Source of the DNA: a virus
Taxonomy: Duplodnaviria > Caudoviricetes
Reading direction: 5' to 3' (one strand)
IMG/VR virus record: IMGVR_UViG_3300043747_000021
Span: 1 to 52,282 of that record
DNA length: 52,282 nucleotides
The translations under genes were made by a program, and so were the position numbers. The notes below the pieces were generated by a model. That model worked only from the letters and a program-made list of their open reading frames with translations, was not told the origin of the DNA and searched no databases. Positions 1-20,481 of the stretch are shown in pieces; position 1 is the stretch's first letter; every line of letters begins with the position of its first letter.

Positions 1-266
1 CCATACCCATCAGAACGGGCTCAGCTTTGGCCAGGATTTCGTGCGGATGGAGCAATTGCCGCTGGTCTTTAACGGCACCACGGCGACCGGCAACATCATC
101 TATACCGACCTCGACGAGCCAGCGTTTCCGATGCAAGGTTATTGGACGACCGACGCGCGGCTGTGCTTGCAGGCGGTGGCGCCGTTGCCTTGCACCGTGG
201 TCGGCGCCATTATCGGCATGGCGACGTCGGAACGGATGACGGGGCAATGACGTGGCAATCGCACTA
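1..266. repeat. Terminal direct repeat (assembly circularity overlap), copy 1
   Basis: 1-266 equals 52017-52282 except at 121/52137 (A/G) and 139/52155 (T/C). It lies inside the tail tube B gene. Confidence 0.97.
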
Positions 267-4300: not shown

Positions 4301-5279
4301 GCATTGGAATGACATCCAGCGCATGATCAGGGACCGGGAGAATGCGACCACCGCCGAAGCCAAGGCGAAGATTCGGACTGAAGATGGCGCCATGCACAAT
4401 TTCTTCGGCATGGTGTCGCGACCCGAGTTTCTCAAGACCGATCCGCAAGAGAATGTCCCTGTAGACCCGGACAATCCGCTCAGCATCTTGCAGCCCCAGG
4501 TCACTCCAGTGTCGCGTCTGCCGCCCGAGCAAGTCGCGGATGCGAGACGCCGCAATTACGAGTTCGAAATGAACGTCGAGCGGGAGATGGCGGCGCTGCG
4601 CGCCCTGAAGCTCGATCCCACCGATTTGTTCAAGCCCGACAAACCCAATTACATCGGCCCACGCGCCGACGGATCGCGCTCGCCGATGGACGCCTATAAG
4701 GAGAACCCCAATATCATCGATCGTGAGGGCACGAGGATTCCCGGCCGCTACGGTCCGGCGGGTTTTCCTTGGCAGCTCGATCCCGAGCGGGCTGGTGAAT
4801 TGAAGATTAAATCAATTCCCGGTGAATTGATCGAAAACTATAATGAGCGCGTGAAGGCTGCAGCCGCGAAGTTCCAAGATACGCTGGTTGGCACGCCGCT
4901 GCCGCCGCCGGCACCGGCGGCGCTGATTGAGCTGAGGGCGAAGGAGGCGCAACAGAAGCAGCAGGAGACCACAGAAGAACCGGCTACGCCAGGAAGGGAT
5001 TTTGGCGTTAAGGGTGTGTTGTTGCCGCAGCAAGCGCCGAAGACGCCAGAGCAACAACAGGAGGAGGAGCAACGGCGAGAGCAGTTGCGGGAACGGGCGG
5101 GGGCAGTTTGGAAAAAACTATTCCCCGATGAACCTTATTTGCGTCTGAGACCAGCAGCGCCAGAACCGCCGCCGCCGGCGCCGCTGCGCCCCGATATGCC
5201 GCCGCCGCCACAATTGGTGCCGAAGACGCGACCGCAAACCATGCTCAACATGCCGCTGCCTGACGAGGAAGAGGCATGA
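1326..5279 (+). CDS. Ejection protein (gp15-like) with SleB/Hydrolase_2-like and M15 peptidase-like peptidoglycan hydrolase domains
   Basis: 'MEAEVGKENPNGKLGYIEVIMNR' (SleB-like) and 'SRHERGLAVD' (SxHxxGxAxD) followed by 'DAGHTE'; 1317 aa; synteny. Confidence 0.8.
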   Translation: MPKLPDIWSVPPPSFGGGGFVPHVPQARLIPRGTGLQAIGKGIAEAGAGLAAMFKRMEAKAKQQQHLDSQTQILAAQLAVQRTLNQLYQDGLNSNDPGNATSTYRNSARSAIEEAAQAIADPRVRENFILKNAIGAEQHALHISNESYKRVMQDHWDADNKTLDDMHDQAIRDPNHLSDYVGAIDRQIEMMREKYHFSPSTAETLRRRASSNIGLGLGRIESRRDPQKLNDELRQWIDSGVPEDQRAPGPRGGDPFYPTLPKPLDFPVPNMDDEEDRRAPRDDTEGDDTEGDDTQSRLEDTAPIRLASLDYYPLGRFNSPGGVPGTGINPGAEGVDAQIGNVHSLAEQRQIAFGREVRDPRVMALVAANMEAEVGKENPNGKLGYIEVIMNRALSRGQSLEEVVSRPEYYDKAGRTHRLTLTPGFGADQIPLLQDLVGQAMRGSNITNYATGNESGRGHQPGTTDADITVNLGPGHERYLREQEDRGWWSRMLSYGNHAMPLGGAADPVRIRSDDMNFLEQRGGHEDRLQGESVPQFAPEMAARLRAAGEAYERETGRRAEFGAMSRSHERQVQYRADYLAGVGGLAAPAGQSRHERGLAVDIPKGPFLDYLHANAQRFGLSYRVWYRTGKDAGHTEMSDGQTVEPGREAQARTMFVPAESGRSGPLRLAALGPLTGYMFRADPGHTTGTVPLAPPRRVAEADVSRETRPRTGVAQVQSPGPAERIPYGPVKGVPHLLEQFNGLGATRPLGPGEYITLPNGAMANEMTYTTEVGGKNRWGVVPGLWIVNGVPTHVTEDQAGEYAERSGLNWKIFPTVQAAEKFANDREAVWERTPHGRTDAQPALWTRPNETPIQRALREGFEQGQAADAQRNQRIREGRPVGPEPVTPPPGHSEPINPDGLVLPKRRQPGEPGFNPKFDNMNPEDIYKLILANSTALAKDHQVSTATSIPNFLAIKDMITSGKDINGIKKYADASLLAASRGDPVHGITQQHWNDIQRMIRDRENATTAEAKAKIRTEDGAMHNFFGMVSRPEFLKTDPQENVPVDPDNPLSILQPQVTPVSRLPPEQVADARRRNYEFEMNVEREMAALRALKLDPTDLFKPDKPNYIGPRADGSRSPMDAYKENPNIIDREGTRIPGRYGPAGFPWQLDPERAGELKIKSIPGELIENYNERVKAAAAKFQDTLVGTPLPPPAPAALIELRAKEAQQKQQETTEEPATPGRDFGVKGVLLPQQAPKTPEQQQEEEQRREQLRERAGAVWKKLFPDEPYLRLRPAAPEPPPPAPLRPDMPPPPQLVPKTRPQTMLNMPLPDEEEA

Positions 5280-8200
5280 CCGCCTTCGACAATCTGCGGG
5301 AGGCGGGTTTTTCCGAGCAGGACATTGCCGACTACGCCTTCCGCACCCAAGCGCCCGCCCTGCGGCAGGCGGGTTATTCGGACGAGGACATCAGCCAGTA
5401 CATCAGCGGGCTGTGGTCGCAGCACCACATTCCCGACGCCATGCTTCAACGGTTCGACGATCCGGGCCCGCAGGCGCGGCTTATGATCAACGCGCAGCAC
5501 GCGCGCATCGCGGAAGCCAACGAAGCCGTCGCCCAAGCGATGAAGCCCGTCGATGACCAGATGCCGGGCCTCGCGGAGTTGACCATCCGCAATCTCCTGG
5601 AAGGACCACGTGAGTTTGGTCAAGGCCTTGCGGCAATCGGCGGGGTGGTGCCGCGCGAGCGGCCGGTGTGGCCCGAAGAAAAGCCGATCGACGTGTTCGG
5701 CGATCCACTGAGCGTCACCGGAAAGAAGTTTTACGCTCAACTGCTGAGAAGCTCACCGACGCTTGCAGGGATGGTTGGCCTCGGCACGCTGGGCTCGGCG
5801 ATTGGTCCCGAAGGTTCGGTTCTTGGTGCGTTGGCCGGCGGTATGGCCGGCGGCGGCTTGACGGCCGGCATCCAGAGCCTCGGGCGCCATCTGCGTGAGG
5901 AGACCGACAAGAGCCCGGACGATCCTCATGGCAACTATCGCCGGGCGCTGATGGCCTCGGCACAAGACAGTGCGTTTATGGCGGCGTCCGTCGGCCTGTT
6001 CGGGATTGCGCCGTGGGAGCAGGCGCCCCTCAAGAACCTGTTGTTTCAGGCGATCGGCGTGCAGCCGGCAGCCAGCGCCGCCGAGCAGGCAATCACCAAT
6101 ATCGAGCAAGGCCAGCCCGTCGGTCAGGGCGTGCCGAGTGCGGCGATCTCAGGCGCGGTCGGGACGCTCGTGCCGGCCGCGGCCATGGAGCCCATCAAAT
6201 ATGGCGGACGCCTTCTGCGCGGCAAGCCGCCGCCGCGCACCGATGTGCCGCCGCCGCCGCCGCCGCCGCCAGATACAAAGGCGGCGGCCGAAGACGCGGC
6301 GCGCCAAGCCCAGCAGGACAATGACAACATCGTGCGCACCGGCCTGTTGCAGACCGGCGAGGCCACTATCCAGCGCGTCAACCCGCAGACCGGCCAGACG
6401 GAATCGATCGGCAGCCTGCCGACGGCGCAGGATATGACGGACGCCGCCAAGATCATCGGCGCCGGCACACTCGATCCCGCCACCCGCGACGGCCTGCTCA
6501 ACCAGTGGCTCACAAACGGCGTTCATCCCGGCGAGATCGCTGCCGATTCCAAGATTGACCCAGGCCTCGCCCGGTTCGGCGAAGCCCCGACCGCACCCCC
6601 GCCGCCACCGCTGCCGCCGCGCGATGCGCCGCCGCCCGAGCGCGTCGCCGCGATCCGCCTGCCCTTGGTCGAGCCGCGGGTCGAGCCGCCACGAGTGGCG
6701 CCGGAACGCCCGCGGGAAGCCCCGCCAGTGGGGGTCGAGCCGCGCCTTCCCCTGGAGACCCCCGGTGTGGAACGCCCGCCAGCGGCCGCGCCAGCCCCGC
6801 CAGAGGCTGCTCCCGCGGCCGAGCCGGCGGTTCACGTGCCGGCGCCCGCCGCGGCCGAGCCGGCGCCCGAGCCGCGTCTGCCGGGCCGGGAGCTACCGCC
6901 CGAGGCGCCGCCCGAGGCGCCGCCCGGGGAGGTTGTCCCGCGGGAGGAGGCGCCGCCGGTCGAGGCCGAGGAACCGCCGTTGCCCGAGCTGCCGCCCGAG
7001 GAGATGCCCGACGTTTACGAACGGGTTTATCCGTCGCGGGTCAGGCCGATCGGCGGGTATTTCGAACCGAACGTGTACGAAGTTCGCGGTGAGCCGCCGC
7101 CGCCGTCGAACATGAACGTGGGCGATACCGACATCATTTGGGGACGCAGGCCGACGCGGCGGGAGCCGCAACAGCCTGTCGACCCCATGACCGACAAAGT
7201 TTGGACGGCGCGCGATTCCGATGCCAACGTGCTCGCGACGCTTGCCGCCGTGTGGGATTATGACCAGCGGCGCTATCGATATCATGTCGCGCTGTTTGAC
7301 GCCGAGCGTGCGGTGCGCGAGCAGCAATTCGATACCGTTGGCGACGCGCAGCATTACGTCGAGCGCATGGTGCGCGGCGGCCGTTATGACGAGGTGGGTC
7401 ACGCGGCGGCGATGCGCGAAACGCAAGAACGCGATGGCTTGCGTGATTTGTTGCGCGGTCCGCGCGCCGAACAATTGCTGCCGCCGAAGGGGTTTTTTGA
7501 CCGCATTTGGGACTTTTACGCGCGGCGTATGACGCCCGAGGAGTTCCTGCGCTCCGACCCGGCGTGGTCGGGCGCGCGCGTGCTGGCCGAGCAATGGGGA
7601 TGGCGTGAGGCCGAGGCGTTCTCCTATCTCGCCAACGAGATGTTCTCGCGCATGGGCGCCACGCAACGTATGTCGCCGAAGGAGGCGGCGCGGTTCATGG
7701 CGCGCGAGCGCGGGATTGCCGTCGTGCCGGACGAGCCGGCGCCGTCGCCAGCAAGCGTGGGCGAGGACGTCCAGGCGGCAATTATCAAGGATTGGAGCCG
7801 GTTTGATGTTCTGACGCCCGAAGCGCGCGCCAGGGAATCGACGCTTGCGCTGCTGGTCGAGCGCGAGTTGATGCGGATGCTCGGACGCGATTTCGTTCAC
7901 GTCATGGTGTCACGCGGCGCTGTTCTCAAGGGCGTACCTCAGTTTGAGCATTTGCAAACGGCGGCTGGCGCGCAAACGGGAGTTGCCGGGCTTGCCTACA
8001 CGCGCACGGATACTGCCGGCAATCTGGTGAAAGGGCTTATCCGCTTGGCATTGGGCGAGCGCGAGTTGTTGCGCACGACCGCGCATGAAGGCTTCCATAT
8101 CTGGCAAGATTATCTGGCGACGGATCGCGAGATAGAAATCCTCGATCGCGGCACCGAGGAGATGCGCAGGAACGTTGTTGCTGCTGAGCTAAAGAAGGCG

Positions 8201-11200
8201 GGCAAAACTGACGCGCAGATTGCCGATTGGCCGACCCGGGAGGTTTGGGCAGAGGCGTTCGATACTTACTGGAAGGACCGTAAAGCCGGCGTTCCGCATT
8301 ACGTTAGGCCGGTCTTCGACAAGTTCATTAATTTTCTGAACCGGCTTCGCAATGGGCTGCGCGGTTTGGGATTCCGCACCTACCGCGATATTTTCAGGGA
8401 CATTTACGAGGGCGAGGCAAGTGCGCGCCAGCGCGCCATGCGCGTACGGCCGGGGACAGAAACGCTTGATGAGCTGGTCTACCAGGAGTTTTTGCGTGGC
8501 ACCGGGCTCGCCTCGCGGGCGCGTGGGGAGGGCGAGCGTTCGTTTACGACGGCGATGGGCTCGCAGTATGTGGTGCATGAGAACGGGCAGACCACACGCA
8601 ACAAGGCGGCGCGTGATGTGCCGGGCCATGAAGGCGATTTCGGGCCGCAGCCGCGCTCGGAAAAGACCTATTACCTGACGCCTGAGAACGCGAATCGGCT
8701 GGCGATCCCGTCGGGCGCACGGGTTCGTTATGTCGATCATGGCAACGGCACGCTGACGCAAGTGCAATACCATGAGGCGACGGGCAAATGGGGCACGGGC
8801 CGTGATCCCGTGGCAGGCAACCATAGGGTGCCTGCCGAAACCGAGCCGCGAGTCGGGTTGATCCCGTTCGAGCTTTGGAAAAAAGGGACGACCGAGGGTT
8901 ACAACTCCTACAGCGGGTGGCATTTCGGGAACCCAATCACCGAGGTGCGGCCGGGCATTGGCGGGGTGACGGCGCAGGCTGAGTTTAAGATCGATAAGAG
9001 CACGCCAGGGATTGCGCAGATATACCGTGCCGAGTTGCCCGAAGGCGTGAGGGGGCAAGGGCTTGGTGTGCAGATGTATGAACAGGCGGCAAGAGAAGCT
9101 GCCGCAGAGGGTCGTCGATTAGCATCCGATGCGGTGGTATCGGCTGACGCTGAACACGTGTGGCAGGCACTGAAGCGGCGTGGCTATGACGTCGTGCAAA
9201 ATCCGGCAGCGCGACGGGTGGAAGGCGGGGGGTTGTCAACCCGTGTCGAGGGAACGTCGAAATATCAAGGTCCCGTGTTCGAAATCCAAGGAGCACCTCG
9301 TGCCGCGCCCGAGCCTGCGAGCTATGCCACGCAATTGGCGGCGGCGTTGGGTGACGATACGAAATTCCCTGAAGTCTACCACCGACTGAAGAACGAGCCG
9401 CGCGAGGTGGTCGTGGCGGCGGCCAACGAGTTCTACGGGCCGGTGTCGCCCGGCACCAGCAAGAACAAGGCGCTGGCGCGGGTGTTGGCGCGTCACGCCA
9501 AGCTGATGTCATTCGAAAGGGGAGGCGCTCCCTATGCCCTACCACAGCCCGCCGATTTAACGCCGGCTATCGCGGCGGCGGCTCGGCGGATGTCGATTGA
9601 CCCCGACAGGTTGGGTGAAATTCAAGGCGATACAATTTTAGGCGCGATGCCGAATATGTACGGGCGATTGCGCGATGGTCGAGAAATGCCAATGAATGCC
9701 GGTGCCGATACGCTATGGATTGGTGCCAAGGGTGGAATGATCGATCCGCGTTTGTTGACTCATTTTAAAAGTGCAGCAACCAATAATGAATGGTTTCCAG
9801 TCAAAGGAGAACGTCGTGCCGTACCAGAGCCCACCCCCACCGTACCCGTTCAGCGCGCTGCCGAGGACGAACGCGTTCCTGCGCCCGCGCCACCCGCCCC
9901 CGGTCCCGCTCCGCCAGCCCCCGAGACCGAGCCGCCCGCCGGGCGTGTCCGTGGACCCCGTGCCACCGGCCGGGCCGCCGCCGATCCCGATACCTGGAAC
10001 CTCGTCGAGTTCCTGACGTCGCGCGATAACGCCAAGCCTGGGCTCAAGCCGATCGCCGAGCTGACCGACCAACTTGGCAGGGGCTACTCCGTGCCGGGTA
10101 TGGGACGGGTGTTCCGCACGAACGGGATGACGCTTGATGAGGCGATGCCGGCGGCGATTGCCGGCGGCTATCTGTCGCCGGACGTGCTCAACGACGCCGA
10201 CGGTGGCCATAAGAAGTTGGTGGAGGCGATCACGACGCTCGCCTTGAAGGAGGGTCAGGTCGCCGAACGGCCGGTTGATGTCAAGGCTGAGCGCGACAAG
10301 ATCGAGCTGGAGCTGGTGAATGCGCTTGAGCTTGCCGGCACGCCCGAGGACCCGGTCGAATTGAGGACGTTCAATCGCGCCGTGCAATTCATAGAGGCTG
10401 GGCACGAACGCAATCCGCAGGCGGCCTATCGTCGGGCGTTGATGGAAGAGGACGAGCATGCCACGAGCACCGAGCCGATCGAGCCGCGCACCGGAGCCAT
10501 ACCCGGGTTTGACGATGAGCCACCCGCAGGCGCACCGGGCGAGGGCCGCACAGTTGAAGGCGAGCCCGTACCAGAGCCCGCGATCGGCGGCGCTCGCGAG
10601 GATGCACGACCTCCTGGCGAGCGCGATGGAGCGGTCGCTGGCGGGCCAGACGACAAGACCGAGCAAAGTGCGCCCACGCCGGTCGAGCAAGAAGCGCGTA
10701 ACCGCTCCACTGCCGGGCTAGACCAGCCGCTGCCGGCCGGTGCCAAGCGCGAGGCCATGCTGGACGAGGCGCACCTCGCGCGGCAGGCGGCGCGTGACGA
10801 CCCGCAGATAGCCATGGATTTCACGGGTCGGGCGGCGGCGGCCGAGCATGACGCCTTCAAGCTCGATCCGGCGCAGCGTGAGGCGGCGGAGCGCGAGCTG
10901 GAAGCGCAGTTCGCAATGCTCGACGACTTCAACGAGCGGGTGATGCCGGAAGCCGATCCGTCGACGCGGCCGGGCGGACCCGGCGATACGTGGGGCGGCG
11001 GTGCGCCCGAGGGACCGCCGGGGACCGGCGGCACCGGTGACGGCAGTGCCGGGTCGGCGGCGCGGGCGGCCAACGAGATGAACCCGCCGAACGAGCGCCG
11101 GCCGTGGATGATGAACATCGTGCAGCGCATGATGATGCTGCCGCAGATGGTGGCAAAGCGCGATCCGATTGTTGCCGGGCTGGAGGCGCTGCTGTCGCAA

Positions 11201-13945
11201 CAGTTCATGCGCACCAACCAATTGATGTATCGCGGCACGCAATTCCTCAAGGCTTACAAGAATCTGCCGCGCGATGCGCGCTTGCGCCTGAACGCCATCA
11301 TGGAGTTAATCCGACACAGGGACGCCGATTACGATCCGGCGGCGCAGGATATTTCCATGCGCAATAACGACCTGGAGCACACCGAGTATTCGCGGATTGG
11401 CGACGTCGTCAGCCTGTCTACGCCCGCCGAGATGCAAGCCTATCATCAGATGCGGCAGTTTTTTCAATCGGTGCTGCCCGAGATGCGCCGGGCTATGGCG
11501 ATCAAGCTTGAGGTCGATCCCAATTTGAGCATTGCCGAATTGGTCAATCGGGCGAACCGGCCCGGTGAGCGCAATCGCGAGCATATGCTCAACGTCGCGA
11601 CGCTGCTCGCGGCAATCGAGAACGCAAGTCGTAAGGGTTACATTCCGTTCGGCCGCTATGGCGACTATTACATCGACGTGCGGCCGCGCACCGCAGAGGG
11701 CGATCCGCGTGAGCCATCGACGTTCTTCCGCTTGGTCGAGACGCGCTCGGGGTTTGACCGGATGGCCGGCCGCGATCCCATGATGCGCGATGACGTGACC
11801 GGGCAGATGGTGCCGCGTCGTGCGCTCGCCGAGCTGCAACGGGTGCGGGCGCGCTTTGCCGGCCAGGACGTCGAGATCAGCCACGGGCAATTTACACCGA
11901 CGCCCGAGCGCTTACGCGAGGTCGGCCTGCCGGCGCTTGAGCGGGTGATGTTGCTGATGAGTCAGGACATCGAGCGCAACATGAAGCGCCAACTCGGGCC
12001 CGGCGCGACGTCGCAGCAAATCAGGGCTTCCGTGCTCCAGTTCTGGCAGCAGGCGGCGGCGGCGCTGGTGCGGGATTTTGCCGAGGAGACCAAGCGCGGC
12101 TTCCAGAAGCGAGCGCGCAACACATTCGGCTATGATCCGGATTTCGGGCGTGTCATCGGCGATTACGTCAATTCGACCTCGCACTACATCGCCAATCTGG
12201 AGTTTTCCAACCGCATTGACCGGGTGCTCAACAACGAGATTGCCACCCATCGCGATGAGAACGTGCGCGAATACGTCAAGGAGCGCATGAACGATCTTAA
12301 CCGCGATCCGCATGTGCTCGACGGGCCGGCACGGCTCGCGCGGCAGGGCGCGTTCCTGTGGGGCTTGGGATTGAATTTCTCCTCGTTCGTGATGTCGATT
12401 CTGCACGATCCGACCAAGGGCTCGGCAGTGCTGGGCATGGCGTTCGGTGCGGCCAATGTTCATCGCGCGTGGGGCCGATTGTTGGGGGCGATGGGCGACA
12501 CCTTACGGGGCATACGCATATCGGCCGAGCACGGGTTCTTTGTCGATCCCGAGGCGATCGGCTTCCGCAATGCGCGTGAGCGCGCGTTTGGCGAGATGGT
12601 GATCGAGGGCGGTTTGTGGCGCAGCCACGGCGGGCGCACGCTCGCGGGCTCGGACGCCATCATTGACGGGCCCGGTGAGTTTGCGCAGCGGGGTATGGCG
12701 AAGGGCTGGACGCGGTTGATGGAGCACGGCGCTTCGCTGATGCACATCGCCGACATGGTCAACCGCTCGATCGGGCTCGCAGCGTTCCGTGAGTTCGTGG
12801 CGCGGCCCGAGGTGTTCGAGGATTTCCATGCGCGGACGATGGCGCGCGATAATTATTACCGATCGCTGGTCGAGCTGAACGGCAAGTCGCCAGAGACCGC
12901 GGCGCGGTATTTGATCGAGTACAACGCCAGCGCCACCAACCCGTACAACCGCGCGCGGGTTATGCGCGGCTTTGCCGGTCAGACGCTGTTCCAGTTCAAG
13001 ACCTACACCTACGGCTATCTGTCGACGCTGCACGATCTGGCGTGGCATCAGGGCGGCGAGGGCAAACTGATGGCGACGATGATGCTGGGCCTGCTCGGCG
13101 CGCTGGGCGGGGTCGGCGCCATGCCGTTCGCGCAGGACGCCAAGGACGGCGTTGATTGGCTGATCAAAACCATTTTTGGAATCGATCCTGATTTCGAACA
13201 GCATTGGGAAGACACCATGGATGCCATGGGCGTCAGCAAGATGGCGGCCGACGGCGCGCTGCACGGTTGGCCGTATGCGACGCTGGGCGTCGACATCGGC
13301 ACCCGGCTCGGTTTTGGTGAGGAGGGCCGTCGGCTGGTTGATTCACCGATCGGCGCCGCCCCGTCGATTTCCTCACGCGCGGTCGAAGAGGCGTGGCACC
13401 GCTACCAGACCGGCCAGCCGACGAGCGCGATCGTGGCGGCGGCGTCGCCGAATTTCCTCAAGTCGATTCTGCTCGGGCAGAAGGTATGGCCGGAACAAGG
13501 TGTTATGACGCAATACGGCCAGCAGGTGTTAACCGCCAATCAACTCACGCCCGCCGATCGGTGGTGGCGGACGATGGGCTATCAGCCGTCCGACATTGCG
13601 CAGGCTTATGAGGAACGGGTGCGGCTGCGGGACAAGACGCAATTCCAGGCCCATGAGGCGGCCAATTTCCATACGCGGGTGGCGATCATGCTGATGGAGC
13701 GACAGCGCGCGCTTCATGAGGGCGATAACGAGGCGGTTACGGAGATCGACCGGCGGATACGGGCGGCGATGGGGGACGCTCAAGCCCGTGAGCTTATTAC
13801 CAGCGGGCCGGGCCTGCGCCGCGCCATCACCGATCGCATCCGCCAGATGATGGACCCGCAGCGCGCGCTCATAACCAAACTGCCCAAGAATCAGCGCCAG
13901 AAATTCTATGAGCAGTATCAAAAGCGCCTGCAAGCGACGCAATAA
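5276..13945 (+). CDS. Giant polyvalent ejection protein (gp16-like, 2889 aa) with zincin metallopeptidase, GNAT and PLxRFG-like regions
   Basis: N-terminal AG[F/Y]SxxDI repeats, HEGFH...EVWAEAF, 'RGQGLGVQMY...SADAEHVWQAL', 'GYIPFGRYGDY', helical C-terminus. Confidence 0.85.
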   Translation: MTAFDNLREAGFSEQDIADYAFRTQAPALRQAGYSDEDISQYISGLWSQHHIPDAMLQRFDDPGPQARLMINAQHARIAEANEAVAQAMKPVDDQMPGLAELTIRNLLEGPREFGQGLAAIGGVVPRERPVWPEEKPIDVFGDPLSVTGKKFYAQLLRSSPTLAGMVGLGTLGSAIGPEGSVLGALAGGMAGGGLTAGIQSLGRHLREETDKSPDDPHGNYRRALMASAQDSAFMAASVGLFGIAPWEQAPLKNLLFQAIGVQPAASAAEQAITNIEQGQPVGQGVPSAAISGAVGTLVPAAAMEPIKYGGRLLRGKPPPRTDVPPPPPPPPDTKAAAEDAARQAQQDNDNIVRTGLLQTGEATIQRVNPQTGQTESIGSLPTAQDMTDAAKIIGAGTLDPATRDGLLNQWLTNGVHPGEIAADSKIDPGLARFGEAPTAPPPPPLPPRDAPPPERVAAIRLPLVEPRVEPPRVAPERPREAPPVGVEPRLPLETPGVERPPAAAPAPPEAAPAAEPAVHVPAPAAAEPAPEPRLPGRELPPEAPPEAPPGEVVPREEAPPVEAEEPPLPELPPEEMPDVYERVYPSRVRPIGGYFEPNVYEVRGEPPPPSNMNVGDTDIIWGRRPTRREPQQPVDPMTDKVWTARDSDANVLATLAAVWDYDQRRYRYHVALFDAERAVREQQFDTVGDAQHYVERMVRGGRYDEVGHAAAMRETQERDGLRDLLRGPRAEQLLPPKGFFDRIWDFYARRMTPEEFLRSDPAWSGARVLAEQWGWREAEAFSYLANEMFSRMGATQRMSPKEAARFMARERGIAVVPDEPAPSPASVGEDVQAAIIKDWSRFDVLTPEARARESTLALLVERELMRMLGRDFVHVMVSRGAVLKGVPQFEHLQTAAGAQTGVAGLAYTRTDTAGNLVKGLIRLALGERELLRTTAHEGFHIWQDYLATDREIEILDRGTEEMRRNVVAAELKKAGKTDAQIADWPTREVWAEAFDTYWKDRKAGVPHYVRPVFDKFINFLNRLRNGLRGLGFRTYRDIFRDIYEGEASARQRAMRVRPGTETLDELVYQEFLRGTGLASRARGEGERSFTTAMGSQYVVHENGQTTRNKAARDVPGHEGDFGPQPRSEKTYYLTPENANRLAIPSGARVRYVDHGNGTLTQVQYHEATGKWGTGRDPVAGNHRVPAETEPRVGLIPFELWKKGTTEGYNSYSGWHFGNPITEVRPGIGGVTAQAEFKIDKSTPGIAQIYRAELPEGVRGQGLGVQMYEQAAREAAAEGRRLASDAVVSADAEHVWQALKRRGYDVVQNPAARRVEGGGLSTRVEGTSKYQGPVFEIQGAPRAAPEPASYATQLAAALGDDTKFPEVYHRLKNEPREVVVAAANEFYGPVSPGTSKNKALARVLARHAKLMSFERGGAPYALPQPADLTPAIAAAARRMSIDPDRLGEIQGDTILGAMPNMYGRLRDGREMPMNAGADTLWIGAKGGMIDPRLLTHFKSAATNNEWFPVKGERRAVPEPTPTVPVQRAAEDERVPAPAPPAPGPAPPAPETEPPAGRVRGPRATGRAAADPDTWNLVEFLTSRDNAKPGLKPIAELTDQLGRGYSVPGMGRVFRTNGMTLDEAMPAAIAGGYLSPDVLNDADGGHKKLVEAITTLALKEGQVAERPVDVKAERDKIELELVNALELAGTPEDPVELRTFNRAVQFIEAGHERNPQAAYRRALMEEDEHATSTEPIEPRTGAIPGFDDEPPAGAPGEGRTVEGEPVPEPAIGGAREDARPPGERDGAVAGGPDDKTEQSAPTPVEQEARNRSTAGLDQPLPAGAKREAMLDEAHLARQAARDDPQIAMDFTGRAAAAEHDAFKLDPAQREAAERELEAQFAMLDDFNERVMPEADPSTRPGGPGDTWGGGAPEGPPGTGGTGDGSAGSAARAANEMNPPNERRPWMMNIVQRMMMLPQMVAKRDPIVAGLEALLSQQFMRTNQLMYRGTQFLKAYKNLPRDARLRLNAIMELIRHRDADYDPAAQDISMRNNDLEHTEYSRIGDVVSLSTPAEMQAYHQMRQFFQSVLPEMRRAMAIKLEVDPNLSIAELVNRANRPGERNREHMLNVATLLAAIENASRKGYIPFGRYGDYYIDVRPRTAEGDPREPSTFFRLVETRSGFDRMAGRDPMMRDDVTGQMVPRRALAELQRVRARFAGQDVEISHGQFTPTPERLREVGLPALERVMLLMSQDIERNMKRQLGPGATSQQIRASVLQFWQQAAAALVRDFAEETKRGFQKRARNTFGYDPDFGRVIGDYVNSTSHYIANLEFSNRIDRVLNNEIATHRDENVREYVKERMNDLNRDPHVLDGPARLARQGAFLWGLGLNFSSFVMSILHDPTKGSAVLGMAFGAANVHRAWGRLLGAMGDTLRGIRISAEHGFFVDPEAIGFRNARERAFGEMVIEGGLWRSHGGRTLAGSDAIIDGPGEFAQRGMAKGWTRLMEHGASLMHIADMVNRSIGLAAFREFVARPEVFEDFHARTMARDNYYRSLVELNGKSPETAARYLIEYNASATNPYNRARVMRGFAGQTLFQFKTYTYGYLSTLHDLAWHQGGEGKLMATMMLGLLGALGGVGAMPFAQDAKDGVDWLIKTIFGIDPDFEQHWEDTMDAMGVSKMAADGALHGWPYATLGVDIGTRLGFGEEGRRLVDSPIGAAPSISSRAVEEAWHRYQTGQPTSAIVAAASPNFLKSILLGQKVWPEQGVMTQYGQQVLTANQLTPADRWWRTMGYQPSDIAQAYEERVRLRDKTQFQAHEAANFHTRVAIMLMERQRALHEGDNEAVTEIDRRIRAAMGDAQARELITSGPGLRRAITDRIRQMMDPQRALITKLPKNQRQKFYEQYQKRLQATQ

Positions 13946-13978
13946 AATCGGCCCCGGGCGGGGTCAGTGCCCGGGGCC
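13941..13978 (-). terminator. Rho-independent terminator at the convergence of the late and leftward operons
   Basis: 10-bp stem GGCCCCGGGC/GCCCGGGGCC (13950-13959/13969-13978) followed by ATTTTATT on the minus strand. Confidence 0.7.
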
Positions 13979-14017: not shown

Positions 14018-14125
14018 CGTTTATTGGGGGACTCCCCTTTCCCCCGTTTATTGGGGGACTCCCCTTTCCCCCGTTTATTGGGGGACTCCCCTTTCCCCCG
14101 TTTATTGGGGGACTCCCCTTTCCCC
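14018..14125. repeat. Perfect 27-bp tandem repeat, 4 copies (CGTTTATTGGGGGACTCCCCTTTCCCC)
   Basis: Four adjacent identical copies with no spacers, in non-coding DNA. Confidence 0.97.
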
Positions 14126-14129
14126 CTGG

Positions 14130-14390
14130 TTATTCATGCGGCGGCGCGAGCCGCGGCGTTGGCACGTCGGCGGGCGGCAGGCGGGCCGCATGCAGGCGTG
14201 TAATGAGCCGGTGACGCATGGCCTGGAGCACGAGGCGGCCGGCGCCGAGCTGGGCGTGGACGAGTGACACACCGGGCCGCAAGCCACGGTCGGTGGCGGA
14301 AAGATGGCGCAGCGCCACGGCGTCGTCAAAGGCGGCCTGCGCCATGGCGACGGCCTCTTCGAGGCCGGCAAGTTCGCGTTCGATCGACAT
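14130..14390 (-). CDS. Hypothetical protein
   Basis: MSIERELAGLEEAV..., closely packed behind the previous gene. Confidence 0.55.
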   Translation of the reverse strand: MSIERELAGLEEAVAMAQAAFDDAVALRHLSATDRGLRPGVSLVHAQLGAGRLVLQAMRHRLITRLHAARLPPADVPTPRLAPPHE

Positions 14391-14394
14391 GAAG

Positions 14395-14652
14395 CTAATC
14401 CTTGAATCGGGGGTCGATGAGGACTTTGGTATTCGGGCCGATGTGCTGAGCGACCTTGCGCTGCATAGTTCGCTCGTCTTCGTCGGCGAAGATGACGAAC
14501 TCGAACTCGTCGGATAGGCCGCACGCCGAGCCCTTGATTCTGATTGGCATGCCCTGGCGCAATAGATCGAGATTGCGGTACGACAACCCGAAGCAGACAA
14601 TCGTTACCGGACTGCCATCGGGGTTGGTTCCTTTACCCATCATTTTCAGCAT
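14395..14652 (-). CDS. Hypothetical phage protein
   Basis: GGAGG RBS; 'FGLSYRNLDLLRQGMPIRI' resembles a recurring small phage family. Confidence 0.7.
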   Translation of the reverse strand: MLKMMGKGTNPDGSPVTIVCFGLSYRNLDLLRQGMPIRIKGSACGLSDEFEFVIFADEDERTMQRKVAQHIGPNTKVLIDPRFKD

Positions 14653-14668
14653 TGGCACCTCCACACCA

Positions 14669-15034
14669 TTAGACGCAAATCTTGGGCGGCATCGGAAACT
14701 TGCCCCCGGTCCAGCGCCACATATGCAGCGTGAACGGATGCATGTTGACGTAGTCCGCGTCGGGCGGATGAAACTCAACGACGCAATCGGCCGGTTCCCA
14801 AAACAGGCGTTTGATAAATGTCATTTCCTGCCAGTTCGGCGTCCTGGTTTTGAGCGACACCGACACGTGCTCCCAAGAACACGTGATGGGATCGCTGGAG
14901 TTTATGGCCATGACCGCGAGATCGCGCCCGCACGGGCCCGGCACGCGGAAGGCGCCCCAAGGTTTGCCTGGGTTTGAGCCGAAGGGACCGACGCGGATGC
15001 GGAACTCCTCAAGTTTGGGGTCGAGCTTCATCAT
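14669..15034 (-). CDS. Conserved phage hypothetical protein (DUF7694-like)
   Basis: 'WEHVSVS..RTPNWQEM..IK.LFW...HPP...YVNMHPF.LH.WR' motif; ATGA overlap with the TnpB-like stop. Confidence 0.75.
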   Translation of the reverse strand: MMKLDPKLEEFRIRVGPFGSNPGKPWGAFRVPGPCGRDLAVMAINSSDPITCSWEHVSVSLKTRTPNWQEMTFIKRLFWEPADCVVEFHPPDADYVNMHPFTLHMWRWTGGKFPMPPKICV

Positions 15035-16329
15035 GACGGCGCCTTGGTGAGTTCGCGCTTGGCGCGCTTGGTGAGTGTGCGGACGTGTTTGGCGGCTTGC
15101 TTGAGGGCGCCGCCGATGGCGAGTGCGGGCGCTTGGTCTTCGATCACTTCGCAGGCGATGCCGGCCTCGGCGGCCTTGTAGAGGAGCATGGCGACCGCGG
15201 TGGCGGGGGCATAGTTGAGGGCGGCGCGATTGATGGCGGCGACGTCGGCGACTGCGGCGCCCCAATTGTTGTGGTCGCCGCGCGCGGAGCGGGTGACCTT
15301 TTTGACCGGCGGCGCGTAGATTGTGATGGCGCTGGCGCGACGCACCAGCCGCGCGGTCCAGACGTGGAGCGCATTCTTGCGCTTGCGGGCGGCGCGCGCG
15401 AGGTCGGCGGCGACGATGGCGCGTTCCTGCATCATCATTTCATGCTCGGGCTCGCTGAGTTTCTTGCCGCGTGGATAGGCGAGGTCGGTTTGCCGGCGTT
15501 TGTCGTCGGCGGCCTCGCACAGTGTGGCGGCGTCGAGCAGCTCTTGCGGGGTGTCGGGCTCGTTGTCGACAATGGCGAAGCCGTCGACGAGATCAAACCG
15601 CACTACGATCGGGCGGTGGCCGGCGACGCGCCGCGGCGGTGTGGTGAGCGCGGCCGAGATCGACCAGCGGCCGTCGAGATAGCGCACGTCGGCATCGGTC
15701 CATTCGTTGACTCGACCGGGCAGTGCGGAGCGCGCCCATACCAAGCTCGGCACGCCCTTGAAATAGACTACCCACGAGTTCTTGTTGCGGCCTGCGACAT
15801 GAGAAAAGCCGTTAAGCTCGGCGCCGTGGGTGCGCGCGTTATAGGGTTGGAGCGAGCAACCGGACAGGCAGCGGTGCGGCACGGCGAGCGCATGGCGCGT
15901 GGACTTGTAGCGCGGATAGCCGGCATCCTCGCCAAGCTTGAGGCGGCGAAAGAATGCCGACCACGCGGCGGCGAGCGAGGTGGCGACGCGCCGCGGGGTC
16001 CAGGTTGATAGCTCTTTCCATTCGGGACACTCCTCGCGCATGCGTGAAATCCACGCGCTCATGGTGAACTCGGAGGGGAGCGCGTGGTCGTGGCATAATT
16101 TCAATTTGCCGGCCGTGCCGGACAATGCCGCGCAGGCCGCGCAGTGGAACACGTGCGGGCCGGCGCAAGCGCGCTGATAGCGCTGCTCGCACATTTCGAG
16201 CATGGCGTTCCAGAGCTGCGCGCACATGGCGGCTTGGCCGCGTAGCGCCTCGTCCTGTGCGGGCGTGGGATAGAGGCGCCACTGGTAGCGGCGCACGACG
16301 CCTTCAATGGGCCGGGTGCGTTTGGCCAT
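15031..16329 (-). CDS. tnpB: TnpB (IS605 OrfB)-like protein, predicted nuclease-inactive
   Basis: 'RYQWRLYPTPAQ...LWN', 'AWSAFFRR...GYPRYKS', 'VTRSARG...INRAAL...LLYKAAEAG'. RuvC-II Glu position reads IYAPP; the zinc ribbon and RuvC-III are absent. Confidence 0.85.
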   Translation of the reverse strand: MAKRTRPIEGVVRRYQWRLYPTPAQDEALRGQAAMCAQLWNAMLEMCEQRYQRACAGPHVFHCAACAALSGTAGKLKLCHDHALPSEFTMSAWISRMREECPEWKELSTWTPRRVATSLAAAWSAFFRRLKLGEDAGYPRYKSTRHALAVPHRCLSGCSLQPYNARTHGAELNGFSHVAGRNKNSWVVYFKGVPSLVWARSALPGRVNEWTDADVRYLDGRWSISAALTTPPRRVAGHRPIVVRFDLVDGFAIVDNEPDTPQELLDAATLCEAADDKRRQTDLAYPRGKKLSEPEHEMMMQERAIVAADLARAARKRKNALHVWTARLVRRASAITIYAPPVKKVTRSARGDHNNWGAAVADVAAINRAALNYAPATAVAMLLYKAAEAGIACEVIEDQAPALAIGGALKQAAKHVRTLTKRAKRELTKAPS

Positions 16330-16775
16330 CAGTCTGCTCCAAAGGTCTGCCGCCAGACCTCGCGGAGCACGGTGATCGCGGTTACAAGTTCCTGCTCGTC
16401 GGCATGAATCTCGCCGGCTTCGATCAGGGATTTAGCTAGTGCTAGAACGAAAAGCTGTTCGTCCTTATTGCCTGGAGGACGATTGCCGTTGCCACCCGCT
16501 GGTAGTTCAGGCGCAATATTGGTTGCTGGGATGGTGCCGATCTTGCGTGGCGCGCACAGCACGCCGTCCGTTATATTGCGGAATACCGTGCCGTTGACGT
16601 GGCTTTCGTTGATTTCGACGTCGTAGGTTGCGCCGGGTTGGAACAGTCCGATCTTGTCGGGCCAGACGCCGTAAAGGTTACCCGAACTATCCTTGATGGT
16701 GCCGCGTTTTTTGCCGCCCTTTGGCGGGTTGACATATTGCACGGTGATCCGGGCGTCGAGGGTTGATTGGTTCAT
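16329..16775 (-). CDS. Hypothetical protein, possible OB-fold ssDNA-binding protein
   Basis: Beta-rich N-terminal domain (TVQYVNPP..GTIKD..G.LYGVW...GATYDVEI), Pro/Gly linker, helical tail. Confidence 0.5.
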   Translation of the reverse strand: MNQSTLDARITVQYVNPPKGGKKRGTIKDSSGNLYGVWPDKIGLFQPGATYDVEINESHVNGTVFRNITDGVLCAPRKIGTIPATNIAPELPAGGNGNRPPGNKDEQLFVLALAKSLIEAGEIHADEQELVTAITVLREVWRQTFGAD

Positions 16776-17047
16776 GACATACTCCACGGGTCTGTCGAGC
16801 GATGTGCCGCGAAAATCTCTCGCTCAATGATCGGCACAAGCTGGCCTGCGGTGGTTATGAGGTTCTCCAAGACCTCGTCGCGGACGTCGGGGCGATGGCC
16901 GGCGATGTAGGTCGCCAGTAAGTCGGCGAGCGCACCGCCGATAATGTCAGGCGAGTAGCCCGCAAATATCGGCTTGACCTGAGCGGCGAGGTGAAGCGCG
17001 GTGGTGCTGCCCACCAGCGCCTGTGGGGTGATGTTGTCGTCGCTCAT
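16772..17047 (-). CDS. Hypothetical protein
   Basis: Coupled ORF with overlapping stop and start codons. Confidence 0.7.
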   Translation of the reverse strand: MSDDNITPQALVGSTTALHLAAQVKPIFAGYSPDIIGGALADLLATYIAGHRPDVRDEVLENLITTAGQLVPIIEREIFAAHRSTDPWSMS

Positions 17048-20278: not shown

Positions 20279-20457
20279 CCGCAACGATTATCACGTTGAT
20301 TACGTCGGCGGCCGAAATCGTTGACCAGCTATTCGGCTCGAACCTTGGCGCCGACGTGCCGGGGGTTGAAATTTTCCTCGCAGCGATTACGCCTTTATTG
20401 GTGTGGCTGGCGCCGCGGCTGCCGTGGCGGCTGCCGTGGGATCACGGCCCGGCGTAA
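20275..20457 (+). CDS. Putative holin
   Basis: 60-aa hydrophobic protein directly after the endolysin. Confidence 0.5.
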   Translation: MTATIITLITSAAEIVDQLFGSNLGADVPGVEIFLAAITPLLVWLAPRLPWRLPWDHGPA

Positions 20458-20481
20458 ACCGGGAGCCGCTGTGGATGAGCT

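What the first reader, a model, noticed from the sequence alone, without database searches (positions are those of the whole stretch)
15031..16329. Domesticated, apparently nuclease-dead TnpB in a phage early operon
Seen: the IS605 OrfB N-terminal and WED/REC signatures are clear. RuvC-I is degenerate (VVRFDLVDGF, no GIDLG), the RuvC-II Glu is replaced (ITIYAPPVKKVTRSARG versus IxxEDLxVxxMTRSAKG), and the CxxC zinc ribbon and RuvC-III are replaced by a basic helix. There is no TnpA, no IS end and no intergenic space: the start abuts the upstream stop and the stop overlaps the next ATG. Established: dead TnpBs (TldR) and dead Cas12 variants act as RNA-guided regulators. Inference: a new phage-domesticated RNA-guided DNA-binding protein whose guide must be internal to coding sequence or supplied in trans.
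Basis: partly seen in the sequence, partly recalled or inferred. Interest (0 to 1): 0.85.

Follow-up and report, generated by a model that had tools for sequence, protein, structure and literature searches.

The report
Phage nuclease-dead TnpB guide-RNA cassette
This phage gene encodes a TnpB/Cas12-like protein that has lost its DNA-cutting site and belongs to a large, undescribed phage family that usually sits beside a small partner gene and CRISPR-like repeat arrays, so it most likely binds DNA under RNA guidance instead of cutting it.

Summary
Window 15031-16329, on the minus strand, encodes a 432-aa protein with a confident TnpB/Cas12 fold. Profile alignments to solved TnpB and Cas12n put an Arg and a Tyr at the RuvC-I and RuvC-II catalytic positions. 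The zinc ribbon and RuvC-III are replaced by one basic helix.

It is not a relic. It belongs to a large family (523 cluster representatives) under purifying selection, found almost only on phage or metagenome contigs.

The main new result is context. In relatives the gene forms a three-part cassette:
- the dead effector;
- a conserved ~75-aa helical protein;
- CRISPR-like arrays of a short repeat with two covarying stems, with no Cas1.

Arrays were found at 30 of 34 family loci, against 0 of 121 canonical-TnpB loci with three or more units. One spacer perfectly matches its own phage's replication-initiator gene. Some arrays lie in frame inside the effector ORF.

This window is atypical. The partner gene (14130-14390) is kept but separated from the effector by two inserted genes. 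Only a spacer-less 27-nt tandem repeat sits where relatives have the array. Thirty-six hairpin-plus-~15-nt units lie 4-17 kb away (35 of them at 28.5-32.6 kb); their link to this protein is inferred, not shown.

Verdict: a new variant of the known kind (TldR, dCas12f, Cas12m). RNA guidance is not demonstrated.

The parts
15031..16329 (-). Nuclease-dead TnpB/Cas12n-like effector gene, 432 aa. It has a CCCH zinc-knuckle insert at about residues 62-82. The RuvC-I and RuvC-II catalytic residues are replaced, and the zinc ribbon and RuvC-III are replaced by helix 402-429.
14130..14390 (-). Small helical partner gene, 86 aa. It is a homologue of the ~75-aa ORF that directly follows the effector in relatives.
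   Evidence: blastp E 1.7e-5 to 5.5e-4 against the ORFs downstream of the effector in L005-L008. HMM and alignment. 7 of 7 independent genome loci carry it. No Pfam, PDB or PADLOC family.
14018..14134 (-). 27-nt tandem repeat, 4.3 copies, with no variable spacers. It starts right after the partner gene's stop, at the position where relatives carry their arrays. Its role is unexplained.
   Evidence: One contig of another soil run lacks 81 nt, which is 3 units.
13941..13978 (-). G+C-rich hairpin followed by a T run: a terminator-like end of the leftward operon, shared with the convergent giant gene.
   Evidence: Sequence read; fold.
14395..15034 (-). Two genes inserted between effector and partner: a DUF7694 protein (14672-15034) and a 127-aa ORF (14395-14778). 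Both are absent from the cassette in all relatives examined.
28534..28719 (-). Hairpin-unit array, 5 units. The unit is GG-C[C/G]CGG-N6-CCG[C/G]G-AG.
30267..30448 (-). Hairpin-unit array: 4 units in the minus sense, plus 1 convergent unit in the plus sense at 30267-30294.
30859..31160 (-). 3 minus-sense units (30859-30920 and 31133-31160) and one plus-sense unit (30917-30944). Unit orientation flips at about 31160.
31144..31171 (+). Sigma-70-like site TTGACG-16-TAGACT immediately upstream of the 9-unit array. This is weak evidence: 1 site found against 0.9 expected.
31180..31495 (+). Hairpin-unit array, 9 units, period 34-39, variable parts 14-19 nt.
31798..31927 (+). Hairpin-unit array, 4 units.
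32348..32619 (+). Hairpin-unit array, 8 units. It ends about 330 nt upstream of the replication-initiator gene (32946-33689).
20442..20469 (+). Solitary hairpin unit.

Best explanation
The gene encodes the effector of a phage-borne, adaptation-less, type V-like guide-RNA cassette. The cassette has three parts: a TnpB/Cas12n-derived protein that keeps the RNA- and DNA-binding fold but cannot cut, a dedicated ~75-aa helical partner protein, and arrays of a short structured repeat followed by variable guides.

Proposed mechanism, all of it inferred:
1. Array transcripts supply hairpin- or pseudoknot-handled guides.
2. The effector, with or without the partner, binds complementary DNA next to a TAM.
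3. It blocks transcription or replication there, without cleavage.

In one relative the target is the phage's own replication-initiator gene.

In this phage the cassette has been rearranged:
- The partner is separated from the effector by two inserted genes.
- The array position holds only a spacer-less 27-nt tandem repeat.
- The most likely guide source is the 36 minimal hairpin units with ~15-nt variable parts (35 of them at 28.5-32.6 kb, in the replication/early region, plus one solitary unit at 20.4 kb), acting in trans.

Shown: the fold, the loss of catalytic residues, selection, and the family-wide cassette with covarying repeats. Inferred: RNA binding, DNA targeting, and the link to the distal hairpin arrays.
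For: Fold and dead site:
- AF2 model with pLDDT 95.2.
- Foldseek top hits are ISDra2 TnpB 8exa at E 1.5e-14, ISFba1 TnpB, dCas12f-gRNA 9n9c at 1.6e-10, Cas12f and Cas12m2; 62 hits at E<=0.001.
- ESM Atlas neighbours are TnpB clusters at TM 0.67-0.71 over residues 4-411.
- Profile against PDB sequences: RdCas12n 9j09 at E 5.5e-27 and ISDra2 TnpB at 1e-19, with Asp aligned to R244 and Glu to Y338.

A family under selection:
- 523 cluster representatives, 94 of them at E<=1e-30.
- dN/dS 0.25 (dS 0.29) and 0.10 in two close pairs.
- 59 family rows separate from 11 canonical TnpBs at one branch, SH-aLRT 100, on a quick tree.

Arrays:
- At least 2 chained repeat units within the gene +-1.5 kb in 23 of 27 non-redundant viral or metagenome family loci (17 of 27 with 3 or more). 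The figure for full-length canonical-TnpB loci from the same scan is 1 of 48, and 0 of 48 with 3 or more.
- Replicated on GTDB contigs: 7 of 7 family loci, against 0 of 73 other loci with 3 or more units.
- Several arrays are regular: 36-37-nt repeat plus 35-41-nt unique spacers in L002, L003, L004 and L009; 36 plus 30 nt in L013.

Repeat structure:
- Two stems, 99% of 599 cells paired.
- Three pairs change on both sides: CG/GC/AU, UA/CG and CG/UA/GC.
- 0 of 500 shuffles reach the observed score; slid controls pair in 23-54% of cells.
- L009 keeps the same architecture with a different sequence.

Reverse test: of 6 viral contigs with 5 or more copies of the repeat, 5 encode the effector.

Partner gene: present at 21 of 27 loci and 7 of 7 loci, and at 0 of 48 and 0 of 73 controls.

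Other points:
- No Cas1 in 5 of 5 records.
- Self-target: an L013 spacer matches the same phage at 31 of 31 nt, inside its replication-initiator gene. The flanks are unlike the repeat.

Window:
- 43 matches to the hairpin pattern against 2.4 expected.
- 36 units, with orientation following the divergent gene orientation.
- Median variable part 15 nt, which is TnpB/TldR guide length (9-16 nt in 10.1101/2023.11.30.569447, passages read).
- The 3' end CAAACCGGGAG resembles the AAAAGCGGGAG of the closest available relative, L001.
Against: - In this window no canonical repeat is found. The covariance model of the family repeat gives a best hit of E 0.17. The L001-type pattern gives 8 matches against 3.35 expected, and 6 of 100 shuffles do as well. 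No chained repeat lies within +-1.5 kb of the gene.
- The link between the effector and the hairpin arrays 4-17 kb away rests on analogy only.
- The window-type hairpin pattern was found in only 3 other viral contigs, as single copies, and none of them has the effector.
- The window's 36 units were picked with a palindromic pattern, so their 100% pairing is partly by construction.
- The window's variable parts have no significant match elsewhere in the 52-kb record.
- Only 1 self-target was found across the four whole records searched. L002, L004 and L009 gave none.
- Many repeat copies in L005-L008 sit just upstream of ORFs and have irregular spacing, which also fits an mRNA-level regulatory element.
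- In G006, a 41%-complete record, 5 repeats occur without an effector.
- The conserved acidic residues D249 and D398 have not been excluded as a rearranged catalytic site, because model coordinates could not be inspected.
- There are no expression or RNA-binding data.
Confidence: 0.5

Rival explanations
1. Orphan effector. This phage has lost its guide array; only the spacer-less 27-nt tandem remains at the array position. The protein, with its partner, either acts without a guide of its own (using guides from co-resident relatives, or as a plain nucleic-acid-binding protein) or is drifting towards loss. On this reading the 28.5-32.6 kb hairpins are unrelated phage elements such as origin, promoter, terminator or RNA-processing sites.
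For: - No family-type repeat in the window.
- The cassette is disrupted by two inserted genes.
- The hairpins cluster in the replication region next to an initiator gene that has its own iterons.
- The window-type hairpin shows no co-occurrence with the effector elsewhere.
Against: - The ORF and the partner ORF are intact.
- The gene is identical over 15022-16011 and 16033-16768 in contigs of another soil run.
- The family is under purifying selection.
- Hairpin-plus-~15-nt units in arrays of up to 9 have CRISPR-like geometry and a 3' end like that of the closest relative's repeat.
- In relatives the repeats are also dispersed many kb from the effector. L005's record has copies about 14 kb away, and L002's record has solitary copies.
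Confidence: 0.22
2. RNA-level regulator. The protein binds the structured repeat within phage mRNAs and controls their translation, stability, processing or antitermination, without any DNA targeting. Many copies lie just 5' of ORFs, and the GGAG-like 3' end of the repeat can double as a ribosome-binding site.
For: - Repeat copies lie directly upstream of start codons in L002, L005, L007 and L019, with AGGAG, GGGAG or GAGAG at the 3' end.
- Spacing is irregular in L001 and L005-L008.
- In the window, unit orientation follows gene orientation.
Against: - Regular arrays with unique 30-41-nt spacers and no ORFs between units occur in L002, L003, L004, L009 and L013.
- A 31-nt perfect spacer-to-protospacer match exists.
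- The whole TnpB fold, including the DNA-binding lobes, is retained with high confidence.
Confidence: 0.15
3. Still a nuclease. A rearranged catalytic site, built from other conserved acidic residues such as D249 and D398, restores cleavage, as proposed for some TnpB branches.
For: - D249 is D or E in 79 of 89 family rows, and D398 is conserved in most rows of A1.
- PMC10691335 (passages read) describes rearranged catalytic sites in TnpB branches.
Against: - Two of the three canonical positions are non-acidic (R244; Y338 followed by Pro340).
- The whole RuvC-III and zinc-ribbon segment is missing in all family members examined.
- Self-targeting of an essential phage gene in L013 would be suicidal for an active nuclease.
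Confidence: 0.05

Closest known systems
TldR (TnpB-like nuclease-dead repressors; Wiegand et al., bioRxiv 10.1101/2023.11.30.569447, passages read; PMC13622181, abstract and outline read)
   Same: - A TnpB homologue with a deteriorated RuvC triad and a C-terminal truncation that removes the zinc finger and RuvC-III.
- No transposase.
- A new, conserved gene association.
- Some TldR clades are phage-encoded.
- The expected function is RNA-guided DNA binding and repression.
   Different: - TldRs use a single adjacent ~100-nt scaffold gRNA and associate with fliC, oppF or csrA.
- This family associates with a ~75-aa helical protein and with multi-unit arrays of a 20-37-nt repeat, sometimes inside the ORF.
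- It lies in soil phages of (mostly) alphaproteobacterial MAG-type hosts.
- No sequence comparison with TldRs could be made, because no TldR sequence was available to the tools.
Nuclease-dead Cas12f (dCas12f), including the CRISPR-array-associated cluster noted by Hoffmann et al. (PMC13472631, passages read; structures 9n9c and 9n9m)
   Same: - A C-terminally truncated dead effector.
- One cluster lies next to CRISPR arrays, with guides predicted to repress promoters.
- dCas12f-gRNA is a strong fold match (E 1.6e-10).
   Different: - dCas12f belongs to Bacteroidota chromosomes, partners with sigma-E or HTH proteins, and uses long scaffold gRNAs.
- By sequence, this family is closer to TnpB and Cas12n than to Cas12f: 1e-19 and 5.5e-27 against 0.042.
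- No sigma factor lies nearby.
Cas12n (RdCas12n, PDB 9j09) and ISDra2/ISFba1 TnpB (8exa, 8h1j, 8iaz)
   Same: These are the best sequence-profile and fold matches over nearly the whole length. They share the HTH_OrfB_IS605 N-terminus, the WED/REC/RuvC order, and the conserved LxYKAxEAG segment.
   Different: They are active nucleases with a D-E-D triad and a zinc ribbon. TnpB lies in IS200/IS605 elements with a 3' omega RNA. Here all of those features are absent.
Cas12m (type V-M; PMC10442227 seen in a search listing; PMC11656645, passages read)
   Same: A miniature type V effector on mobile elements. It binds DNA and blocks transcription without cutting double-stranded DNA, and its arrays lack adaptation genes.
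   Different: - Cas12m is about 600 aa and keeps a zinc finger and a partly intact RuvC that processes crRNA.
- It is mostly plasmid-borne.
- It is a weaker match here (Foldseek E 4.4e-9, TM 0.41-0.48).

Membership tests
TnpB (IS200/IS605/IS607 OrfB; NCBIfam NF040570) | N-terminal HTH_OrfB_IS605 domain | tested here: met
   PF12323 at E 2.3e-9, 37 bits against a cutoff of 21.
TnpB (IS200/IS605/IS607 OrfB; NCBIfam NF040570) | Family-level score, with the OrfB_IS605 (PF01385) and zinc-ribbon (PF07282) domains | tested here: not met
   NF040570 scores 64.6 bits, below its cutoff of 100. No PF01385 or PF07282 hit. The zinc ribbon is absent from the alignments.
TnpB (IS200/IS605/IS607 OrfB; NCBIfam NF040570) | RuvC D-E-D catalytic triad | tested here: not met
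   The Asp aligns with R244 and the Glu with Y338, and the RuvC-III segment is missing. A residue-level structural superposition was not possible with the tools.
TnpB (IS200/IS605/IS607 OrfB; NCBIfam NF040570) | Transposon context: TnpA or a serine recombinase, IS ends, and an omega RNA at the 3' end | tested here: not met
   PF01797 is absent from the record. The gene overlaps both of its neighbours. No Rfam family matched.
TldR | TnpB homologue with a deteriorated RuvC, a C-terminal truncation and no transposase | tested here: met
TldR | Adjacent non-coding guide RNA (scaffold plus guide) | tested here: inconclusive
   None lies next to the window's gene. Relatives carry arrays of short repeats rather than a ~100-nt scaffold.
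TldR | RNA-guided binding of promoters with repression | not testable with these tools
   This needs RIP-seq, ChIP-seq or reporter assays. The only computational hint is the L013 self-target in a replication-initiator gene.
Type V CRISPR-Cas (Cas12 effector plus array) | Cas12/TnpB-fold effector | tested here: met
   (PADLOC Cas12f at 1.1e-18 and Cas12u4 at 6.4e-16).
Type V CRISPR-Cas (Cas12 effector plus array) | Repeat-spacer array next to the effector | tested here: inconclusive
   Window: none within +-1.5 kb apart from a spacer-less tandem repeat. Family: 30 of 34 loci.
Type V CRISPR-Cas (Cas12 effector plus array) | Adaptation module (Cas1, Cas2, Cas4) | tested here: not met
   Cas1 (PF01867) was found in 0 of 5 relatives' records, 3 of them complete. 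None appeared among the window's neighbours. Cas2 and Cas4 were not searched separately.
Type V CRISPR-Cas (Cas12 effector plus array) | Spacers that match targets | tested here: inconclusive
   One perfect 31-nt self-target in L013. None for L002, L004, L009 or the window. Two spacers scanned in IMG/VR hit only their own contigs.
dCas12f-sigmaE system | Operonic ECF sigma factor (rpoE) with a CTD extension | tested here: not met
   No sigma-factor domain appeared among 20 neighbouring ORFs. The conserved neighbour is an unrelated ~75-aa helical protein.

The most novel reading that the evidence does not exclude
A family of soil phages runs a genome-wide, self-directed, RNA-guided control circuit, a natural viral CRISPRi. 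A nuclease-dead TnpB-derived effector and its obligate ~75-aa partner read minimal hairpin handles scattered through the phage's own early and replication region, and in some relatives encoded in frame inside the effector gene itself. They use the ~15-40-nt sequences downstream of each handle as guides to throttle the phage's own replication initiator and early transcripts. On this reading the repeat has shrunk, in this window, to a 20-nt hairpin. That would show how little RNA a TnpB-fold protein needs.
Probability: 0.22. Interest if true: 0.9.

Novelty: new variant of a known kind. Interest (0 to 1): 0.72.

Why it matters
If the cassette works as inferred, several things follow.
- It is a third independent route from TnpB to an RNA-guided regulator, after TldR and dCas12f. 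This one is carried by phages and has features not in print in the papers I could search (passages).
- Those features are a dedicated small partner protein, 20-37-nt handles with two covarying stems in place of a ~100-nt scaffold, guide arrays embedded in the effector's own reading frame, and a guide aimed at the phage's own replication gene.
- It would give a very compact (380-470 aa) natural DNA binder with a short guide handle.
- It would provide a test case for how omega RNAs shrink into CRISPR repeats.

For this window specifically, the rearranged cassette gives a natural experiment. The effector and partner are present without an adjacent array, while candidate trans arrays lie elsewhere. 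This tests whether the effector can use distal minimal hairpins.

Tried and rejected
- Rfam at gathering scores found nothing on the window. On 11 related loci it found only a tRNA.
- No cultured-phage record encodes the family. The only hits are two distant Thermus-phage TnpB N-termini. The array regions have no meaningful match in cultured phages.
- Neighbour synteny: only the partner gene travels with the effector. Genes flanking the cassette differ from locus to locus: endolysin, terminase, thymidylate synthase, exonuclease VIII, portal, replication initiator.
- Self-targets of the window's variable parts: a few 12-mer matches, about as many as my rough by-hand estimate of chance (~2); no shuffle control was run.
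- The 27-nt tandem unit has no other copy in the window.
- The covariance model of the family repeat and the L001-type pattern found nothing significant in the window.
- The window-type hairpin pattern in IMG/VR hit 3 contigs with single copies and no effector.
- Two spacers (from L003 and L009) scanned in IMG/VR hit only their own contigs.
- Sequencing runs: no RNA holder is listed. Four soil DNA runs hold parts of the stretch. Laying contigs gave only strain variation.
- The partner protein has no Pfam, PDB-sequence or PADLOC family. The Atlas shows only generic helical-hairpin look-alikes.
- Complex prediction for effector plus partner was not available, so nothing was folded.
- The earlier-findings look-up by place and by sequence returned nothing.
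- The supplements of PMC10691335, with its V-U and Ri clade lists, were not opened. They might show whether this family is one of its unnamed inactivated branches.
Full report
**1. The object.**
Window 15031-16329 is an open frame on the minus strand encoding 432 aa. Its ATG overlaps the stop of the upstream ORF (16329-16787) by one base. Its stop overlaps the ATG of the next gene in an ATGA.

The record is a 52,282-bp viral contig, classed as linear, with a CheckV completeness of 78%. Its gene content is podovirus-like: tail tubular proteins, portal, major head protein and terminase. It also carries two giant virion proteins, an amidase endolysin, an MT-A70 methylase and a replication initiator. 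No Y1 transposase is present.

**2. A TnpB/Cas12 fold with a dead site.**
- Pfam finds only the HTH_OrfB_IS605 N-terminus (E 2.3e-9). NCBIfam guided_TnpB scores 64.6 bits against a cutoff of 100. PADLOC Cas12f and Cas12u4 models match at 1e-18 and 6e-16.
- A profile of 92 family and outgroup sequences matches RdCas12n (9j09, E 5.5e-27), an AI-designed nuclease (9yyg), ISDra2 TnpB (1e-19) and ISFba1 TnpB (6e-12). It matches Cas12f only at 0.04.
- The AlphaFold2 model is very confident, with pLDDT 95.2 and pTM 0.85.
- Its Foldseek neighbours are TnpB (8exa, 1.5e-14), dCas12f-gRNA (9n9c, 1.6e-10), Cas12f, Cas12m2, Fanzor2 and Cas12k.
- The ESM Atlas model gives TM 0.67-0.71 to TnpB clusters.

In the alignments the RuvC-I Asp falls on R244 and the RuvC-II Glu on Y338, which is followed by a near-invariant Pro. 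Everything after the LxYKAxEAG segment (zinc ribbon and RuvC-III) is replaced by one strand and a long basic helix at residues 402-429. I could not superpose coordinates residue by residue. A rearranged site using D249 or D398 is therefore unlikely but not excluded.

**3. A large family under selection.**
- The word-indexed search gave 62 further proteins at E<=2.3e-37. Sixty of them list only PF12323 or no Pfam domain.
- The exhaustive search gave 523 representatives at E<=1e-3, and 94 at E<=1e-30.
- A quick ML tree puts 59 family rows and 11 canonical TnpBs on opposite sides of one branch, with SH-aLRT 100. The careful search did not finish, and I left out P0039, P0050, P0059 and P0063.
- dN/dS is 0.25 for L005 against L006 (dS 0.29) and 0.10 for L004 against L007.
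- Contigs of another soil run are identical over most of the gene.
- Members sit on viral and metagenome contigs. In GTDB they sit on a handful of small MAG contigs: Stellaceae, Hyphomicrobiaceae, Rhodospirillales, Rhizobium, Rhodoblastus and Longimicrobiales. No cultured phage has one.

**4. The family context: a three-part cassette.**
Comparing the flanks of relatives showed repeated elements around the gene.

A fixed rule was used to count them: at least 2 copies of a 14-mer chained at 28-130 nt, within the gene +-1.5 kb.

| Set | Loci | At least 2 units | At least 3 units |
|---|---|---|---|
| Non-redundant family loci (viral/metagenome) | 27 | 23 | 17 |
| Full-length canonical-TnpB loci, same scan | 48 | 1 | 0 |
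| Family loci on GTDB contigs | 7 | 7 | 5 |
| Other loci on GTDB contigs | 73 | 6 | 0 |

For the 48 controls I dropped 14 partial-match loci. An earlier, cruder detector on all 62 control loci flagged only L085, which is itself family-like.

Array geometry:
- In L002, L003, L004 and L009: a 36-37-nt repeat with unique 35-41-nt spacers, co-directional with the gene.
- In L013: a 36-nt repeat with 30-nt spacers.
- In L019: a period of about 52.
- In L001 and L005-L008: irregular spacing, with many copies just 5' of ORFs.

The common repeat has the layout S1a-S2a-S1b-(A-rich linker)-S2b-AG. Over 67 copies from 8 loci, 99% of 599 cells pair. Three pairs show changes on both sides. No shuffle of 500 reaches the observed covariation score, and slid controls pair in 23-54% of cells. 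L009 keeps the same layout with a different sequence and its own compensatory changes. The two stems are interleaved, so they form either a pseudoknot or alternative hairpins.

No Cas1 is present in 5 of 5 relatives' records, and no Rfam family matches.

Reverse test: the repeat pattern occurs in 11 viral contigs. Of the 6 with 5 or more copies, 5 encode the effector. One of these is a new one, G009, where the gene sits between repeat clusters. The sixth is a 41%-complete fragment. The five contigs with 1-2 copies are fragments or carry only a weak TnpB match.

**5. The partner gene.**
A ~75-aa helical ORF follows the effector directly.
- It is present at 21 of 27 family loci. Sixteen of these were used to build the HMM, so the independent ones are L011, L018, L020, L026 and L028.
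- It is present at 7 of 7 GTDB loci, which were not in the HMM.
- It is present at none of the 48 or 73 control loci.
- It has no known family.

The window's homologue is at 14130-14390. blastp gives E 1.7e-5 to 5.5e-4 against the L005-L008 ORFs, before any profile was built.

**6. Guides that target.**
One L013 spacer matches the same phage perfectly over 31 nt, 2.3 kb downstream. The flanks are unlike the repeat. The match lies inside an O-like replication-initiator gene (phrog_1032, E 6.8e-22).

A cutting enzyme aimed there would be suicidal for the phage; a binder would be a regulator. No other self-target was found in the complete records of L002, L004 and L009.

**7. Arrays inside the ORF.**
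In L013 a 94-nt leader plus three repeat units (period 66 nt, which is 22 codons) lie in frame between the RuvC-I strand and the following helices of a single open 468-aa ORF. The leader and array are duplicated after the partner gene. L010, L011, L014, L028 and L034 also carry units with periods of 60-75 nt within the span of the gene.

**8. What this window has.**
The order here is effector, DUF7694 gene, a 127-aa ORF, partner, a 27-nt x 4.3 tandem repeat, then a terminator-like hairpin.
- The two middle genes are absent from all relatives.
- The tandem repeat sits exactly where relatives have their arrays, but it has no variable spacers and no other copy in the window.
- A contig of another run has three fewer units.
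- No family-type repeat is detectable in the window.

Instead there are 36 units of GG-C[C/G]CGG-N6-CCG[C/G]G-AG. Thirty-five cluster at 28.5-32.6 kb and one is solitary at 20.4 kb.
- The pattern gives 43 matches against 2.4 expected.
- Unit orientation flips at about 31160, along with gene orientation.
- The arrays hold up to 9 units.
- The variable parts have a median of 15 nt and a range of 10-37 nt.
- The last array ends about 330 nt before the replication-initiator gene.
- The second stem pair covaries: C-G in 25 units and G-C in 11, never mixed. The units were, however, selected with a palindromic pattern.
- The 3' end, CAAACCGGGAG, resembles that of the nearest available relative's repeat, L001 (AAAAGCGGGAG). 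The unit looks like that repeat's second hairpin with the first stem deleted. This is suggestive, not statistically supported.

**9. Reading.**
At the family level, the conclusion that a dead effector, a partner and guide arrays form one functional cassette is well supported. I would put it near 0.85.

That this window's protein is RNA-guided and draws its guides from the distal hairpin arrays is inference; I put the overall mechanism at 0.5. The rivals are an orphan effector with unrelated hairpins (0.22), an mRNA-level regulator (0.15) and a rearranged nuclease (0.05).

**10. Comparison with the literature.**
The kind is known:
- TldR (10.1101/2023.11.30.569447; PMC13622181).
- dCas12f, including an array-associated cluster (PMC13472631).
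- Cas12m (PMC11656645).
- Inactivated TnpB and V-U branches (PMC10691335).

For all of these I read passages or abstracts only, and no supplements. In four literature searches and those passages, I found no description of a phage cassette with this partner protein, this repeat, or in-ORF arrays.

Earlier notes of this scan report several phage-borne dead TnpB/Cas12f-like proteins next to arrays in other genomes. One has only the spacer-proximal 13 nt of the repeat conserved. These are unchecked leads, and I could not test whether they belong to the same family (the sequence look-up was empty).

Noticed in passing
window 14018-14134: The 27-nt tandem repeat (unit GGGGGAAAGGGGAGTCCCCCAATAAAC in operon sense) varies in copy number. 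One contig of soil run X3 skips 81 nt, which is 3 units. Its function is unknown.
   Followed up: partly
window 16084-16146 (residues 62-82 of the protein): A conserved H-C-x2-C ... C-x2-H insert, a CCCH zinc-knuckle-like motif, sits in the N-terminal lobe. It is present only in the subclade that contains the window's protein (rows P0001-P0011, P0020, P0029 and P0035 of alignment A1). The Pfam 'Furin-like' near-hit probably reflects these cysteines.
   Followed up: no
L013 5431-5700 and 6413-6640; also L010 6869-6955, L011 6551-6793, L014 1-232, L028, L034: Repeat arrays with periods that are multiples of 3 (mostly 66 or 72 nt) lie in frame inside the effector ORF. In L013 the internal leader plus array is duplicated downstream of the partner gene.
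   Followed up: partly
window 33289-33363: A perfect 21-bp x 3.6 direct repeat (ATCCACAGGGTGTGGTTAATG) lies inside the replication-initiator gene 32946-33689. These are probably origin iterons, as in lambda O.
   Followed up: no
window 236-259 and 52252-52275: The same 11-nt x 2.2 repeat (ATGACGGGGCA) occurs near both ends of the contig. The structural module also runs off the right end and resumes at the left. The record may therefore be circularly permuted, or more complete than the 78% estimate.
   Followed up: no
window 28085-28174: ARAGORN calls a 90-nt tRNA-Ala with anticodon AGC next to the small-terminase-like gene. Dinucleotide runs (CA x 12, TG x 18) follow at 28226-28341.
   Followed up: no
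window 5276-13945: A giant 2889-aa virion-type protein with proline-rich low-complexity stretches, an HEGFH metalloprotease-like motif and a lysozyme-like segment (phrog_938). It is preceded by a 1317-aa protein with a faint tape-measure match.
   Followed up: no
L027 and L029 (one 235-kb metagenome contig): Two copies of the effector cassette lie about 62 kb apart on the same contig.
   Followed up: no
window 30267-30333 and 30424 / 31822: A convergent pair of hairpin units faces each other at 30273 and 30312. The same 16-nt variable part (GAACCTAGTGACGTGA) follows a minus-sense unit at 30424 and a plus-sense unit at 31822.
   Followed up: no
L002 record (G012) 1896, 8239, 11388; L005 record at about 24.8 kb: Solitary copies of the family repeat lie many kb from the effector in relatives' genomes. 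Dispersed units are therefore not peculiar to this window.
   Followed up: partly
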